A DNA stretch of 3,483 bases from a virus (Duplodnaviria; Heunggongvirae; Uroviricota; Caudoviricetes): positions 1-3,483 of the IMG/VR virus record IMGVR_UViG_2728369593_000026, one strand, 5' to 3'. The position numbers and the translations under genes were made by a program. The stretch's first letter is position 1. Each line of letters begins with the position of its first letter. Positions 1 to 3,483 of the stretch are shown here, piece after piece. Under the pieces are notes generated by a model. The model saw only the letters and a program-made list of their open reading frames with translations. It ran no database searches and was not told where the DNA came from.

Positions 1-99
1 CCTCGTAGTGTTAAACGTTATGGTGAAATTAGTGGAAATGTAGGTACAGAAACCCGTCCACGAAATATTGCATTTAACTTTCTGGTGAGGGCTAAATAA
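1..99 (+). CDS. Tail-fibre protein, C-terminal end (5'-truncated by window edge); variable receptor-binding portion of the + orientation
   Basis: Frame 1 is open from the window edge to TAA at 97-99, translating ...PRSVKRYGEISGNVGTETRPRNIAFNFLVRAK*. It sits immediately upstream of a tfa gene, the usual stf-tfa arrangement. The homology is recalled, not searched. Confidence 0.55.
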   Translation, partial: PRSVKRYGEISGNVGTETRPRNIAFNFLVRAK

Positions 100-132
100 T
101 GAAACCTTTTTGATGAAAATGGGCTGGCTACA

Positions 133-690
133 GTGCCGGGCGATATGCGTTGTTTTTATTATAATGCAGTAACGTATGAATATACCGGCTGGTCTGATGA
201 ATATATTAATACTGGCGTAAGTATGCCCGCCTGTTCCACTGGTATTGACCCGAGCGAAAACATTCCGGGAAAAGTGGCAGTATTTACGGGTAAGGGATGG
301 AGCCATGAAGAAGACCATCGCAATGAGACCGTTTACTCAACTGAAAATGGCGCAGCTGTTACAGTGGATTATATCGGTGCCATCAAAGACGGTTATGTCA
401 CGCTTTCACCGTTAACGCCATACGATAAATGGGATGGTGAGAAATGGGTGACGGATACCGAGGCACAGCATAGCGCCGCAGTAGAAGCGGCAGAAGCACA
501 GCGCCAGTCGCTGATTGATGCTGCAATGGCTTCCATCAGTCTGATTCAACTGAAATTACAGGCCGGGCGGAAGCTGACGCAGCCAGAAAACACCCGACTT
601 AACGCTGTGCTGGATTATATTGACGCGGTGACGGCAACAGATACCAGCACAGCGCCGGACGTCATCTGGCATGAACTGCCGGAGGCGTAG
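133..690 (+). CDS. tfa: Tail-fibre assembly protein (Tfa/U family chaperone)
   Basis: 185-codon ORF ending TAG at 688-690. It aligns in my recollection with lambda Tfa (e.g. AVF..EEDHR..TVY and DKWDGEKWVTDTEA against lambda QKWNGTAWVKDTEA) and carries the C-terminal DTSTAPD motif. The start is uncertain: GTG at 133 or ATG at 145, both with weak Shine-Dalgarno sequences; in-frame stops at 97-102 exclude anything earlier. Confidence 0.85.
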   Translation: MPGDMRCFYYNAVTYEYTGWSDEYINTGVSMPACSTGIDPSENIPGKVAVFTGKGWSHEEDHRNETVYSTENGAAVTVDYIGAIKDGYVTLSPLTPYDKWDGEKWVTDTEAQHSAAVEAAEAQRQSLIDAAMASISLIQLKLQAGRKLTQPENTRLNAVLDYIDAVTATDTSTAPDVIWHELPEA

Positions 691-1105
691 GCCATTCAAT
701 ATCTGGCGCACCGGAAGTATCGACCAGCTCCAGTGCGTCCAGATAATCCAGCCACAAATTATATTGCGCCAGTTCCTCACCTTTCAGGCGACCAATCGCT
801 GCTTTACCAGGCCATTGCTTACTGTTTATGTATTCGTTGACCTGATTAATCAATTGCTGCTTTTCCAGCGCGGCTGCGGCAATTTGTTCCTCATGAGTTG
901 GCGGTGGAATTTCCCCCCAGGTGGGAAGGCCATCATCACCCGCGATGCGTACTTTCCCTTGCAACGTTCTGTCTTCAATAAATTCCATGTAAGTGTCATA
1001 TGTCACTTCGACAACATCAGCAAGTTCCCATCCGGCCTGTTCATATTTCGCCGCATCATTTTTAGCGAAAAAACTATTATTTGAGGCGCTATAAACCATT
1101 TCCAT
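662..1105 (-). CDS. Alternate tail-fibre assembly protein (Tfa'/U'-like) belonging to the opposite-orientation cassette
   Basis: 147-aa ORF with ATG at 1103-1105 (reverse strand) and stop at 662-664. Its C-terminus carries the same Tfa signature (LWLDYLDALELVDTSGAPDIEWP) as the + strand Tfa. It lies directly downstream of the minus-strand fibre cassette, with one nucleotide between that stop and this start. Confidence 0.8.
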   Translation of the reverse strand: MEMVYSASNNSFFAKNDAAKYEQAGWELADVVEVTYDTYMEFIEDRTLQGKVRIAGDDGLPTWGEIPPPTHEEQIAAAALEKQQLINQVNEYINSKQWPGKAAIGRLKGEELAQYNLWLDYLDALELVDTSGAPDIEWPTPPAVHAR

Positions 1106-1106
1106 A

Positions 1107-1505
1107 TTAATACCCTACTGCAATATAAAAAACTGATTCACCAGCGTCCTGAGCACCTGTCCCCGGAATTCCAGACCAGCCTTTGTTAATGAATGCAAAA
1201 CCGGTATTACTCAGATCAGATGCTCTGTACATCGGGCTGAATATCCAGTAGTTGGCTGCATATGTTTGTCCGAAAACAATGCCATAGCACTGATTTGTAA
1301 ATGGCGTAGAAAATAATTTTCCACCATTACCAGCGATAGCACCGAATCGCATCTGGAATCCATTAGGGAAATTAACGCCACCCGATGGGGAAGACCAGTA
1401 AGACATATCAGGTATCTGATTATCTCCTGTGCCCACATCCCTTTTCGCCGCTTCTCCTAAACCAACGTTTATGAAAATACAGAAATAACGAGCAAATGGC
1501 ATCAT
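1107..1505 (-). CDS. Alternate tail-fibre C-terminal (variable) cassette, Sv'-like; appears promoter-less and unfused in this orientation
   Basis: Minus-strand ORF ending TAA (reverse of 1107-1109), Gly/Asn/Ser-rich like phage fibre tips (…GTGDNQIPDMSYWSSPSGGVNFPNGF…). The reading frame runs through the crossover site at 1452-1477 and stops being meaningful beyond it; the ATG at 1505 is probably not a real start. This is the expected layout for a cassette that becomes fused to the constant fibre 5' part after inversion. Confidence 0.7.
   Translation of the reverse strand: MMPFARYFCIFINVGLGEAAKRDVGTGDNQIPDMSYWSSPSGGVNFPNGFQMRFGAIAGNGGKLFSTPFTNQCYGIVFGQTYAANYWIFSPMYRASDLSNTGFAFINKGWSGIPGTGAQDAGESVFYIAVGY
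1452..1477. other. Din-family invertase crossover site (pix/gix/hix-like), right boundary of the invertible segment
   Basis: TTCTCCTAAACC-AA-CGTTTATGAAAA: two 12-bp half-sites in inverted orientation (9 of 12 positions symmetric) around a 2-bp AA core. It fits the recalled consensus TTnTCnnAAACC-NN-GGTTTnnGAnAA and the hixL sequence TTCTTGAAAACCAAGGTTTTTGATAA. It lies 55 bp upstream of the invertase start and inside the minus-strand fibre reading frame, as gixR does in Mu. Confidence 0.75.
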
Positions 1506-1531
1506 TCCTGCTTTTGTCAGGGAGAGCTACC

Positions 1532-2086
1532 ATGCTTATTGGCTATGTACGTGTGTCAACAAATGACCAGAACACAGATCTACAACGTAATGCGCTGAAC
1601 TGTGCAGGATGCGAGCTGATTTTTGAAGACAAGATAAGCGGTACAAAGTCCGAAAGGCCGGGACTGAAAAAACTGCTCAGGACATTATCGGCAGGTGATA
1701 CGCTGGTGGTCTGGAAACTGGACCGACTGGGGCGCAGTATGCGGCATCTTGTCGTGCTGGTGGAGGAGTTGCGCGAACGAGGCATCAACTTTCGTAGTCT
1801 GACGGATTCAATTGATACCAGTACCCCAATGGGGCGCTTTTTCTTCCATGTGATGGGTGCCCTGGCTGAAATGGAGCGTGAACTGATTGTTGAACGAACA
1901 AAAGCTGGACTGGAAGCTGCTCGCGCACAGGGACGAATTGGCGGTCGCCGTCCCAAACTTTCACCAGAACAATGGGCACAGGCCGGACGATTAATTACAT
2001 CAGGAGTTCCTCGCCAGAAGGTGGCGATCATCTATGATGTTGGCGTATCGACTTTGTATAAGAAGTTTCCGGTCGGAGATAAATGA
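1532..2086 (+). CDS. pin: Serine site-specific DNA invertase, Pin/Gin/Cin/Hin (Din) family
   Basis: 184-aa ORF starting ATG at 1532, with GGGAGAG Shine-Dalgarno at 1520-1526. The N-terminus MLIGYVRVSTNDQNTDLQRNAL carries the catalytic Ser9 in the VRVSTNDQ motif; the resolvase-type catalytic domain (GDTLVVWKLDRLGRS) and C-terminal helix-turn-helix (VAIIYDVGVSTLYKK) follow. It is near-identical in my memory to E. coli PinE/PinR. The ORF-track start at 1496 is rejected as a spurious upstream extension. Confidence 0.95.
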   Translation: MLIGYVRVSTNDQNTDLQRNALNCAGCELIFEDKISGTKSERPGLKKLLRTLSAGDTLVVWKLDRLGRSMRHLVVLVEELRERGINFRSLTDSIDTSTPMGRFFFHVMGALAEMERELIVERTKAGLEAARAQGRIGGRRPKLSPEQWAQAGRLITSGVPRQKVAIIYDVGVSTLYKKFPVGDK

Positions 2087-2390
2087 AACCGCAGCACGTC
2101 GTATGCAAGAACGTGCCACGGCTGGCTGATGGACGTTCGATAGCGCGAGTTTGAATGAAAATCAGCCGGAGATGATTTTACATAATTGCTACGGAATTAT
2201 TCAATACAGGGATTGCTTGTGTCTGCATGGATTGACCTGAAATAGTCCCGAAAATTTCTCTAAAAAACTCGAAAAAAATGGTAACTAATTGAATGTATTA
2301 ATATGCAATGGTACGTGTTTGGGATTAAAAGATGAACGTAATTTTGTTTAACACATTAATTTTAAATGATTTTCTTGTTTGTTGACGAAA

Positions 2391-2416
2391 ACAGGAATCG
2401 TGTTCGGTCTCTTTTT
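2391..2416 (+). terminator. sdsR: Hairpin plus T-tract matching the 3' end and intrinsic terminator of sRNA SdsR (RyeB); probable attR core at the prophage-chromosome junction
   Basis: ACAGGAATCGTGTTCGGTCTCTTTTT is 25 of 26 identical to the SdsR 3' end as I recall it (…ACAGGAAUCGUAUUCGGUCUCUUUUU). It is a stem-loop followed by a T5 run on the + strand, immediately upstream of pphA, which matches the known pphA-sdsR synteny. The conserved 5' part of SdsR is absent upstream, where AT-rich DNA sits instead. Confidence 0.55.
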
Positions 2417-2550
2417 ATCTGTTAAAAGCCAGAAGCATTCCCTTCGCTGACTTTATAGTCAACCATAACACACACTCTACTGTCTGAGTCCAGCGTTTTT
2501 TAACATTCTTGTTAAGATTATGTGATCTTTAGCGCGGGAGGAAAATATTG

Positions 2551-3207
2551 ATGAAACAGCCTGCGCCCATTTATCAGAGAATTGCGGGTCATCAATGGCG
2601 ACATATCTGGCTTTCAGGCGATATACACGGTTGTCTTGAGCAATTGCGCCGCAAATTATGGCATTGTCGTTTTGATCCGTGGCGAGATTTACTTATCTCA
2701 GTGGGAGACGTTATCGATCGTGGGCCGCAAAGTTTACGTTGCCTGCAGTTACTGGAACAACATTGGGTTCGTGCGGTAAGAGGCAATCATGAACAGATGG
2801 CGATGGATGCGCTGGCATCCCGGCAGATGTCTTTATGGTTGATAAATGGCGGCGACTGGTTTATTGCGCTGGCAGATAATCAACAGAAACAAGCGAAAAC
2901 GGCGCTGGAAAAATGTCAGCATTTGCCCTTTATTCTTGAATTACACAGTCGCACCGGCAAACATGTTATTGCTCATGCCGATTATCCAGATGATGTCTAT
3001 GAATGGCAAAAGGACGTCGATTTGCATCAGGTCTTGTGGAGCCGCTCGCGATTAGGTGAACGCCAAAAAGGGCAGGGAATTGCAGGTGCTGATCATTTCT
3101 GGTTTGGTCATACACCTTTGCGCCATCGCGTGGATATTGGCAACCTGCATTATATTGATACCGGTGCTGTCTTTGGGGGAGAACTGACTCTTGTGCAATT
3201 GCAATAA
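2551..3207 (+). CDS. pphA: Serine/threonine protein phosphatase 1 (PrpA/PphA), calcineurin-like metallophosphoesterase
   Basis: 218-aa ORF starting ATG at 2551, with GGGAGG Shine-Dalgarno at 2535-2540. It carries the metallophosphatase motifs GDIHG, GDVIDRG and GNHE. The sequence MKQPAPIYQRIAGHQWRHIWLSGDIHGCLEQL… matches my recollection of E. coli PphA. The ORF-track start at 2548 is a TTG one codon upstream and is rejected in favour of the ATG. Confidence 0.92.
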   Translation: MKQPAPIYQRIAGHQWRHIWLSGDIHGCLEQLRRKLWHCRFDPWRDLLISVGDVIDRGPQSLRCLQLLEQHWVRAVRGNHEQMAMDALASRQMSLWLINGGDWFIALADNQQKQAKTALEKCQHLPFILELHSRTGKHVIAHADYPDDVYEWQKDVDLHQVLWSRSRLGERQKGQGIAGADHFWFGHTPLRHRVDIGNLHYIDTGAVFGGELTLVQLQ

Positions 3208-3399
3208 TTAAAAATCACCGTACTCCTGTGCAGGTCGCCAGAAACCATCTATAAAATCCTCAATCGGAAAACAACCGCCATGGCGGATCCGTTGATCGCT
3301 CATAGAATAAAGACACTGCTGTTCCGTGTTGTAGACATCCACAACAATATCTTCACAACCGCCATCCAGGTAGCAAACAAAAAGTACCAGCGCGAACAT
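3208..3399 (-). CDS. yebW: Small conserved hypothetical protein, 63 aa, consistent with YebW
   Basis: Minus-strand ORF with ATG at 3397-3399, preceded by GGGGA, and stop at 3208-3210: MFALVLFVCYLDGGCEDIVVDVYNTEQQCLYSMSDQRIRHGGCFPIEDFIDGFWRPAQEYGDF. Size and position next to pphA match what I recall for E. coli yebW. The frame stays open upstream to the window edge, so a longer form cannot be excluded. Confidence 0.55.
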   Translation of the reverse strand: MFALVLFVCYLDGGCEDIVVDVYNTEQQCLYSMSDQRIRHGGCFPIEDFIDGFWRPAQEYGDF

Positions 3400-3483
3400 T
3401 TCATCCCCGAAGTGTGGTGCCGTACCGTTAAGTTTAGGAGAGATTTTACAACGGGGGAATAACCCGGACAAATAACCCGCCAT

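What the first reader, a model, noticed from the sequence alone, without database searches (positions are those of the whole stretch)
2087..2416. Prophage-chromosome junction inside the sdsR/ryeA small-RNA locus
After pin comes about 300 bp of AT-rich, ORF-free DNA, ending in a hairpin and T-run that matches the last roughly 26 nt of SdsR. The conserved SdsR 5' portion, which I recall as GCAAGGCGAUUUAGCC…, is absent. pphA and a yebW-like gene follow, the known chromosomal neighbours of sdsR. This pattern is what an attR looks like when a phage integrates into the 3' end of an RNA gene. The ryeA/ryeB locus has been described as an insertion hot spot for horizontally acquired DNA, which I recall without being able to verify here. 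The prophage therefore probably splits or remodels the sdsR/ryeA pair in this strain.
Basis: partly seen in the sequence, partly recalled or inferred. Interest (0 to 1): 0.6.

Follow-up and report, generated by a model that had tools for sequence, protein, structure and literature searches.

The report
Prophage right end inside sdsR/ryeA locus
This stretch is the right-hand junction (attR) of a lambda-type prophage that integrated into the terminator of the E. coli small-RNA gene sdsR. This kind of phage attachment site is already described in Salmonella, so the finding is correct but ordinary.

Summary
Window 2391-2416 is an exact copy of the last 26 nt of K-12 sdsR. The rest of sdsR is absent. 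From 2391 to pphA the window matches K-12 except for one base.

Window 2087-2390 is phage DNA. It is the P arm of an attP that occurs intact, next to a lambda-type integrase, in two free-phage records. It sits next to pphA in only 228 of 5,426 complete E. coli genomes.

A comparison of 2 attB, 2 attP, 5 attR and 3 attL sequences shows a clean reciprocal exchange. It confines strand exchange to the 11 bp ACAGGAATCGT (2391-2401).

In three related lysogens the integrase end holds a complete sdsR, rebuilt with a phage-supplied 3' half. sdsR is therefore not destroyed. What is split is ryeA: its promoter and first 64 nt stay in this window and point into the prophage. pphA is also moved about 42 kb from the sdsR promoter that normally drives it.

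The hairpin at the junction is a crippled hybrid, not a predicted terminator.

The site was described for Salmonella phage PhiW104 in 2008. This is an E. coli member of a known kind, and interest is low to moderate.

The parts
1532..2086 (+). pin, a serine DNA invertase and the last prophage gene. It lies next to the invertible tail-fibre segment at 1-1505.
   Evidence: Pfam Resolvase plus HTH_7. Annotated pinE in matching genomes.
2087..2390 (.). P arm of the phage attachment site (prophage DNA). The AT-rich part is about 2170-2390.
   Evidence: Colinear with attP of phage record PP818812.1 (88.7% identity) and with an IMG/VR contig; in both it continues through the core into a P' arm and int. 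It lies next to pphA in only 228 of 5,426 genomes. GC profile.
2087..2123 (.). GC-rich hairpin just after the pin stop codon. On the - strand it forms a 14-bp stem followed by UUCAUUUAUCU. It is a possible transcription stop or processing site for transcripts coming from the int/core side. Function is inferred.
   Evidence: Fold -22.6 kcal/mol, z = -2.5 on the - strand. Partial Rfam CssrB hit at 2064-2120, 28 bits against gathering 76. About 80-83% conserved in HK97, phi80, HK106 and Stx phages in the segment between the tail-fibre genes and int (int positions).
2247..2273 (+). Candidate arm-type Int binding sites: CCCGAAAATTT ... CTCGAA.
   Evidence: Direct repeat between the P arm and the P' arm of attP (family D1). 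The motif CYCGAAAWTT occurs once in every P arm and every P' arm fetched, and only once elsewhere in the loci. The integrase has a lambda arm-DNA-binding domain. Binding was not tested.
2391..2401 (.). Crossover region (core): ACAGGAATCGT. These are the only bases shared without difference by attP and attB between the diagnostic mismatches at 2390 and 2402.
   Evidence: Twelve-sequence comparison of attB, attP, attR and attL.
2391..2416 (+). Remnant of sdsR: its last 26 nt, comprising two bases of the 5' stem half, the terminator loop, the 3' stem half and the U-run. The promoter and bases 1-78 of the 104-nt annotated gene are absent.
   Evidence: Rfam score is below threshold. The hybrid hairpin is weak and no terminator-like site is found.
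2402..2550 (.). Chromosomal B' flank: the sdsR-pphA spacer, including the pphA leader.
   Evidence: Identical to K-12 except for one base at 2444. Window 2386-2550 matches in all 5,426 genomes.
2391..2454 (-). First 64 nt of RyeA. The transcription start maps to 2454. After 2391 the transcript would run into the phage P arm and then antisense to pin.
   Evidence: K-12 ryeA is annotated at 1923066-1923337, and the 5' end was mapped in PMC6610125. Coordinates were transferred through alignment A1.
2455..2534 (-). Fragment that carries the sigma-70 ryeA promoter in K-12 (-80 to -1 relative to the RyeA start).
   Evidence: PMC6610125 used -80 to +10 as the promoter fragment. The sequence here is identical to K-12. 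The consensus scan misses this promoter in both K-12 and the window, so the scan is insensitive to it.
2551..3207 (+). pphA, a serine/threonine phosphatase. It is separated here from the sdsR promoter.
   Evidence: Pfam Metallophos. Annotation. Promoter dependence from PMC6610125.
3208..3399 (-). yebW (DUF1482), the chromosomal neighbour.

Best explanation
Window 2087-2416 is the attR junction (P-O-B') of a roughly 42-kb temperate phage. The phage uses a lambda-family tyrosine integrase with an arm-binding domain, plus an excisionase.

**How the site works**
- The phage's attP core imitates the intrinsic terminator of the sRNA gene sdsR.
- Strand exchange took place within ACAGGAATCGT (2391-2401), which is the terminator loop and the adjoining stem bases.
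- Because the phage brings its own copy of the terminator's 3' half, a complete sdsR is rebuilt at the integrase end (attL, next to yebY).
- The end seen in this window keeps only the displaced last 26 nt of sdsR, fused to the AT-rich P arm.

**Consequences, inferred from published K-12 work and not measured here**
1. SdsR stays intact, with two terminator changes. A U·G pair becomes U-A, and the tail UCUCUUUUU becomes UCUUUUUUU.
2. RyeA, the antisense partner, is cut. Its sigma-70 promoter and first 64 nt remain here and now transcribe into the P arm and antisense to pin. The RyeA body at attL loses that promoter.
3. pphA normally depends on read-through from the sigma-S sdsR promoter. It is now about 42 kb from that promoter, downstream of pin and a crippled hybrid hairpin.
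For: **Shown**
- Exact 26-nt sdsR 3' end at 2391-2416, with K-12 identity running from there to pphA.
- All 5,426 complete E. coli genomes match 2386-2550, but only 228 carry 2087-2385 beside it. The K-12 intergenic region (attB) is contiguous, at least 80% of it in one place, in 5,189 genomes and not in 237.
- Two independent phage records hold attP as P arm, core, P' arm and a 358-aa int.
- attL with full-length sdsR (Rfam 118.1 bits), int and xis is present in DEC5E, FDAARGOS_946 and 2003-3014.
- Hybrid signatures are consistent in 5 attR and 3 attL sequences.
- The integrase has Phage_integrase, central and lambda Arm-DNA-bind_1 domains. It is 41% identical to HK022 Int. The excisionase belongs to the Exc family.
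- The native terminator folds at -15.8 kcal/mol at attB and attL, against -4.9 for the hybrid in the window. Scans detect a terminator at attB and attL but not in the window.

**From the literature**
- pphA is transcribed mainly from the sdsR promoter by read-through. ryeA is sigma-70 dependent and starts 141 nt downstream of the sdsR start (PMC6610125).
- In Salmonella DT104, PhiW104 integrates within the last 23 bp of ryeB. Lysogeny lowers ryeA transcription and raises ryeB transcription (PMC7380047 summarising Balbontin 2008).
Against: - The window holds only one prophage end, and no genome in the collection is identical to it. The best are 98.9% over 1500-3483 and 99.6% over 2087-2550. The intact sdsR, int and xis are therefore inferred from relatives.
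- No expression data exist for this strain. The effects on RyeA, SdsR and pphA are extrapolated from K-12 promoter mutants and from Salmonella.
- The arm-type sites are only a repeated motif. IHF-like matches are no more frequent than chance.
- One of the two attP records is labelled an Actinobacillus phage, which is odd for a phage that targets an enterobacterial sRNA gene.
Confidence: 0.9

Rival explanations
1. The junction belongs to a decayed prophage remnant. In this strain the other end has been lost by deletion together with the body of sdsR, so SdsR is truly missing.
For: The window shows only 2.4 kb of phage DNA and no sdsR 5' part. Some genomes show secondary damage at this locus: IS1 inside sdsR in FDAARGOS_944 and IS600 in pphA in strain 2003-3014.
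Against: All three related lysogens examined for their int end carry an intact attL with full-length sdsR. The two with the same pin-type backbone hold a prophage of about 42 kb with a full set of annotated gene functions. All 5,426 genomes match the K-12 pphA-yebY intergenic region somewhere.
Confidence: 0.05
2. The 26-nt remnant with its T-run still works as an intrinsic terminator. It would end pin or late-operon transcription and insulate pphA from the prophage.
For: The 3' stem half, the loop and the U-run are native. A 2 + 4 bp interrupted stem can still be drawn (sequence).
Against: The predicted fold is -4.9 kcal/mol, no better than shuffles (z = +0.54), and the minimum-energy structure is not the terminator hairpin. 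The terminator scan finds nothing in the window but does find the attB and attL terminators. Even the native sdsR terminator allows substantial read-through (PMC6610125).
Confidence: 0.07
3. The AT-rich tract is a lineage-specific chromosomal variant of the sdsR-yebY spacer rather than phage DNA, and the match to the sdsR end is only a shared terminator motif.
For: None beyond the low GC content, which is also typical of intergenic DNA.
Against: The tract is colinear with attP in two phage or viral records, where it is joined through the same core to a P' arm and int. It is absent from 5,198 of 5,426 genomes. In every case examined it is flanked by phage tail genes. The 26-mer match has a chance expectation of 0.
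Confidence: 0.01

Closest known systems
PhiW104 attachment site in ryeB/ryeA of Salmonella enterica DT104 (Balbontin, Figueroa-Bossi, Casadesus and Bossi 2008, J Bacteriol 190:4075; summarised in PMC7380047)
   Same: - The target is the same: the Rho-independent terminator at the 3' end of ryeB (= sdsR), which is internal to the antisense gene ryeA.
- The sRNA 3' end is duplicated at the prophage ends.
- ryeA is altered by lysogeny.
   Different: - The host is E. coli.
- Here the exchange is mapped to 11 bp (ACAGGAATCGT) that overlap the first 8 nt of the 'last 23 bp'.
- Relatedness of this integrase to that of PhiW104 could not be tested. The closest Salmonella hit is a truncated int at 73% identity.
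- In E. coli the insertion also separates pphA from its sdsR promoter. I found no paper that describes this.
- I could not read the primary paper.
Lambda / HK022 Int-Xis-attP integration module
   Same: - The integrase is a heterobivalent tyrosine recombinase with an N-terminal arm-binding domain, 41% identical to HK022 Int.
- An Exc-family excisionase lies upstream of int.
- attP has AT-rich P and P' arms that carry a repeated motif.
- The prophage order is attL-int-xis ... tail genes-attR.
   Different: - The core and target differ: the sdsR terminator rather than the gal-bio attB.
- The P arm has no sequence similarity to lambda's.
- Arm, IHF and Xis sites are not defined experimentally.
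Phages and islands that integrate into the 3' end of tRNA or tmRNA genes (for example P22 at thrW, P4 at leuX; reviewed by Williams 2002, recalled from memory)
   Same: attP carries a copy of the 3' end of a structured RNA gene, so the gene is rebuilt at one junction and a short 3' remnant is left at the other. That remnant is what this window shows.
   Different: The target is an Hfq-dependent sRNA with an overlapping antisense gene and a downstream read-through gene. Rebuilding sdsR therefore does not preserve ryeA or the sdsR-pphA transcription unit.

Membership tests
Prophage attR at the sdsR/ryeB terminator | The chromosomal flank is identical to an unoccupied attB up to a point inside the last ~23-26 bp of sdsR. 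| tested here: met
   K-12 identity runs from 2391 to pphA. The 26-mer is exact.
Prophage attR at the sdsR/ryeB terminator | The other flank is homologous to one arm of an attP found intact in phage genomes. | tested here: met
   PP818812.1 and IMGVR_UViG_2690316286_000019 carry P arm, core, P' arm and int.
Prophage attR at the sdsR/ryeB terminator | A reciprocal attL with the core repeat, a rebuilt sdsR and int/xis lies at the other prophage end. | tested here: inconclusive
   Met in three related lysogens. The window itself does not reach the other end, and no identical genome is in the collection.
Prophage attR at the sdsR/ryeB terminator | Hybrid junction sequences are consistent with one reciprocal exchange between attP and attB. 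| tested here: met
   At the three diagnostic positions nearest the core (2390, 2402, 2411), attR reads phage, host, host and attL reads host, phage, phage. This holds in 5 attR and 3 attL sequences.
Prophage attR at the sdsR/ryeB terminator | Lysogeny changes RyeA and SdsR levels. | not testable with these tools
   Reported for Salmonella PhiW104 (PMC7380047). No expression data are available here.
SdsR_RyeB RNA (Rfam RF00111) | A covariance-model score at or above the gathering threshold (38 bits), covering the 5' seed region and both hairpins. | tested here: not met
   20.7 bits, E = 1.9, with only the terminator aligned convincingly. The 5' part is absent.
SraC_RyeA RNA (Rfam RF00101) | A covariance-model score at or above the gathering threshold (37 bits). 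| tested here: not met
   24.4 bits on the - strand at 2420-2317. Only the first 64 nt of K-12 RyeA are present, at 2454-2391.
Rho-independent terminator | A stable GC-containing hairpin immediately followed by a U-run. | tested here: not met
   The U-run is present but the stem is a crippled hybrid: -4.9 kcal/mol, z = +0.54, and no hit in the scan.
Lambda-family heterobivalent tyrosine integrase system | A catalytic tyrosine-recombinase domain plus an N-terminal arm-DNA-binding domain, with an excisionase upstream. | tested here: met
   PF00589, PF22022 and PF09003 in the int of relatives, and PF07825 in xis. These genes lie outside this window.
Lambda sib/tI-type retroregulator (considered for the hairpin at 2087-2123) | A hairpin across attP from int, on the int-sense strand, homologous to lambda sib. 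| tested here: inconclusive
   The position and strand fit, and the fold is good. There is no sequence similarity to lambda 27399-27744. Function is untested.

The most novel reading that the evidence does not exclude
The attachment site may be more than a neutral landing pad. It could act as a regulatory rewiring device through three linked changes:
- The host's constitutive sigma-70 ryeA promoter, left at attR, becomes an antisense promoter. It reads into the P arm, a conserved hairpin and pin, which could modulate tail-fibre inversion or int-side transcripts.
- The RyeA body at attL comes to lie 128 nt downstream of int and behind a sigma-70-like TTTACA-16-TACAAT element in the P' arm. Phage transcription would then control the SdsR antagonist.
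- pphA moves from RpoS/SdsR control to prophage control.

Lysogeny would then change stationary-phase SdsR targets and phosphatase expression in about 4% of E. coli strains.
Probability: 0.12. Interest if true: 0.5.

Novelty: new member of a known kind. Interest (0 to 1): 0.25.

Why it matters
SdsR is a conserved RpoS-dependent sRNA. Published work links it to porin, tolC and mutS regulation and to toxicity that RyeA counteracts. pphA is expressed from the sdsR promoter by read-through.

A prophage sitting exactly in the sdsR terminator keeps SdsR, removes RyeA's promoter from RyeA's body, and detaches pphA from its promoter. About 4% of complete E. coli genomes (228 of 5,426) carry this junction.

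Strain-to-strain differences in SdsR, RyeA and pphA expression may therefore simply reflect lysogeny at this site. This is useful for annotation and for interpreting sRNA data. It is not a new principle.

Tried and rejected
- **Lambda sib homology.** Aligning the P arm with lambda 27399-27744 showed no real similarity. I do not claim sib homology for the hairpin at 2087-2123.
- **Wider species scan.** A scan of species-representative genomes with the single integrase returned only two near-identical loci, in Shigella flexneri and E. coli. The link to the PhiW104 integrase is untested.
- **Primary paper.** Balbontin 2008 (PMC2395037) is not held. I relied on a review's summary.
- **Python analysis of the loci.** It failed because only L001 was exported to /data. 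I used the alignment and pattern tools instead.
- **IHF consensus search.** There were 6 matches with at most 1 mismatch against 5 expected. Two fall in the P arm. Uninformative.
- **Sigma-70 consensus scan.** It does not detect the experimentally known ryeA promoter in K-12 or in the window. Its negative results for + strand promoters upstream of pphA carry little weight.
- **Weak Rfam hits.** The Burkholderiales-2 and Xanthine hits inside the tail-fibre genes (E = 1.9-4.8) were dismissed as chance.
- **Search for the window's own genome.** No identical genome was found, so its attL could not be inspected.

Full report
**Anatomy of the window**

- Bases 1-1505 hold tail-fibre and tail-fibre-assembly genes in opposing orientations.
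- 1532-2086 (+) is the serine invertase pin.
- 2087-2550 is non-coding.
- 2551-3207 (+) is pphA, and 3208-3399 (-) is yebW.
- In K-12 the order is yebW, pphA, then ryeA overlapping sdsR, then yebY. sdsR is on the pphA strand and ryeA is antisense to it.

**Checking the observation**

- No ORF of 30 aa or more lies wholly between pin and pphA; two, of 31 and 39 aa, run out of pin as far as 2129 and 2119.
- The last 26 nt of K-12 sdsR (ACAGGAATCGTGTTCGGTCTCTTTTT) occur once, exactly, at 2391-2416. Chance expectation is 0.
- Rfam scores are below threshold for both families: SdsR_RyeB 20.7 bits against 38, and SraC_RyeA 24.4 against 37.
- AT-richness is real only for about 2170-2390, at 26-38% GC. 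The first 80 nt after pin are about 50% GC.
- The junction 'hairpin' is a hybrid. Most of its 5' stem half is phage DNA (GACGAAAAC against the native GACCGAATAC). It folds at -4.9 kcal/mol, no better than shuffles. The native terminator folds at -15.8.
- The terminator scan finds the native hairpin at attB and at attL but nothing in the window.

**Where chromosome ends and phage begins**

- Alignment with K-12 gives identity from 2391 to pphA with a single difference, at 2444. Upstream of 2386 there is no similarity.
- All 5,426 complete E. coli genomes match 2386-2550. Only 228 have 2087-2385 attached to it.
- The K-12 pphA-yebY spacer is contiguous in 5,189 genomes and interrupted in 237.
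  - One interrupted genome I examined has IS1 inside sdsR.
  - The other has the same integrase module.
- Two phage or viral records contain the window's 2087-2401 sequence continuing through the core into a different arm and a 358-aa integrase. They are GenBank PP818812.1 and an IMG/VR contig. This arrangement is an intact attP.

**The reciprocal junction**

- In O55:H7 DEC5E and in FDAARGOS_946, a prophage of about 42 kb lies between pphA and yebY. FDAARGOS_946 is the closest genome for the junction, at 99.6% identity.
- The pin end of that prophage resembles the window. Xis and int sit at the yebY end.
- Strain 2003-3014 also has int and xis next to yebY. Its int-proximal junction and those of DEC5E and FDAARGOS_946 all hold a full-length sdsR, at 118.1 bits in Rfam.

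**Four-way comparison and the crossover**

I lined up 2 attB, 2 attP, 5 attR and 3 attL sequences.

| Site | Sequence around the core |
|---|---|
| attB | GACCGAA**T**ACAGGAATCGT**G**TTCGGTCT**C**TTTTTATCTGT |
| attP | GAC-GAA**A**ACAGGAATCGT**A**TTCGGTCT**T**TTTTTAATTGT |

- Every attR, including the window, reads A...G...C. That is phage to the left and host to the right.
- Every attL reads T...A...T.
- Exchange therefore occurred within the 11 bp ACAGGAATCGT, window 2391-2401. This is the terminator loop and the adjacent stem bases.
- The phage-type bases that end up in the rebuilt sdsR (A and U) agree with the Rfam family consensus. They keep the stem at -15.8 kcal/mol and lengthen the U-run.

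**Recombination machinery (in relatives, outside this window)**

- The integrase has catalytic, central and lambda arm-DNA-binding domains.
- It is 41% identical to HK022 Int and 97.5% identical to the int of PP818812.1.
- The upstream gene is an Exc-family excisionase.
- As expected for such an enzyme, the two attP arms share a direct repeat. It reads CCCGAAAATTT...CTCGAA at window 2247-2273, with a related copy in the P' arm.
- The motif CYCGAAAWTT occurs once in each P arm and each P' arm fetched and almost nowhere else in those loci.
- Binding is inferred, not shown. IHF-like matches are at chance level.

**What the insertion does to the host locus (inference from published K-12 data)**

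Choi et al. 2019 (PMC6610125) reported three relevant results:
- RyeA starts 141 nt downstream of the sdsR start, from a sigma-70 promoter on the pphA side.
- ryeA transcription interferes with sdsR transcription.
- pphA mRNA arises mainly from the sigma-S sdsR promoter by read-through of the sdsR terminator.

Transferred to the window:
- The RyeA start is at 2454 on the - strand, and its promoter fragment is 2455-2534. Both are identical to K-12.
- In this lysogen the ryeA promoter and the first 64 nt of RyeA remain at attR. They should produce a chimeric RNA that enters the P arm and then runs antisense to pin.
- That RNA keeps only 26 of the roughly 100 nt of complementarity to SdsR.
- The RyeA body at attL has lost this promoter. 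It lies 128 nt downstream of int on the same strand.
- In DEC5E it also sits behind a sigma-70-like TTTACA-16-TACAAT in the P' arm. That element is less well conserved in the two attP records.
- pphA is cut off from the sdsR promoter by the prophage. It now follows pin, a GC-rich hairpin without a U-run on this strand, and the crippled hybrid hairpin.

This matches the Salmonella report that PhiW104 lysogeny alters the 5' part of ryeA, lowers ryeA transcription and raises ryeB transcription (PMC7380047).

**Diversity at the site**

The same P arm, core and int module is attached to different phage bodies:

| Backbone | Example |
|---|---|
| Baseplate and pin type, as in the window; 43 genomes share the pin-attR-pphA arrangement | DEC5E, FDAARGOS_946 |
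| Lambda-like with gpJ and Lom | strain M6 |
| Lambda-like carrying the effector gene nleG7 | strain 2003-3014 |
| Different tail fibres | PP818812.1 |

In E. coli the 'hot spot' is therefore one integration module moving among mosaic phages.

**Comparison with what is known**

- Integration into the ryeB terminator was described for Salmonella in 2008. Later work cites it.
- Bobay et al. list ryeB in Salmonella as a known phage target and find further sRNA-adjacent sites in E. coli (PMC3603311).
- An island catalogue names a Citrobacter island by its RyeB site (PMC10111431).
- I found no paper that describes the E. coli site, its 11-bp crossover segment or the pphA consequence. The principle is nonetheless established.

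**Verdict**

The main refinement is that sdsR is rebuilt at the other end, while ryeA and the sdsR-pphA unit are what get split.
- This is an E. coli member of a known kind of attachment site. Interest is 0.25.

**Limits**

- Only one prophage end is in the window.
- No identical genome was available.
- All functional consequences are inferred.

Noticed in passing
window 2087-2123, with tail to 2076 on the - strand: A GC-rich hairpin lies directly after the pin stop codon. On the - strand it is a 14-bp stem followed by UUCAUUUAUCU (-22.6 kcal/mol, z = -2.5). It gives a partial Rfam CssrB hit of 28 bits against gathering 76. Positions 2087-2185 are about 80-83% identical to a segment of HK97, HK106, phi80 and many Stx phages that lies between the tail-fibre genes and int; in HK97 and HK106 it sits 300-400 bp from int. 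The position resembles that of lambda sib/tI, but there is no sequence similarity to lambda.
   Followed up: partly
L004 43419-43446 (+), the P' arm at attL of strain DEC5E: A sigma-70-like TTTACA-16-TACAAT (10 of 12) in phage DNA points across the core into the ryeA body. It could replace the displaced ryeA promoter. It is less well conserved in the two attP records.
   Followed up: partly
L005 / PP818812.1 (whole record): This record is labelled 'Actinobacillus phage vB_Apl-pPE4'. Its integrase is 97.5% identical to that of the E. coli prophages, and its attP copies the terminator of the enterobacterial sRNA gene sdsR. The stated host looks doubtful.
   Followed up: no
L011 3249-3946 (E. coli FDAARGOS_944): An IS1 element is inserted inside the 5' part of sdsR. 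The pphA-side homology starts at about +10 of sdsR. This is a different, non-phage disruption of the same locus.
   Followed up: partly
L014 15592-19121 (E. coli 2003-3014): Here the sdsR-site prophage is lambda-like and carries the type III effector gene nleG7 next to attR. pphA itself is truncated by an IS600 insertion.
   Followed up: no
window 1-1505: This is an invertible tail-fibre cassette region next to pin. It holds two opposed tail-fibre-assembly genes (133-690 +, 662-1105 -) and a tail-fibre C-terminal segment (1107-1505 -). Only 1 of 5,426 genomes matches window 1-2420 colinearly over at least 80%, which suggests orientation or cassette variants among relatives.
   Followed up: no
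L007 25958-26156, 28328-28502, 34605-34656, 40136-40314 (prophage in FDAARGOS_946): The related prophage encodes several known RNA regulators, all above Rfam gathering scores: C4 antisense RNA with its a1/b1 targets, IsrK, Sok, DicF and RalA.
   Followed up: no
window 2444: This is the single difference from K-12 in the chromosomal flank (C here, T in K-12). It falls at +11 of RyeA.
   Followed up: no
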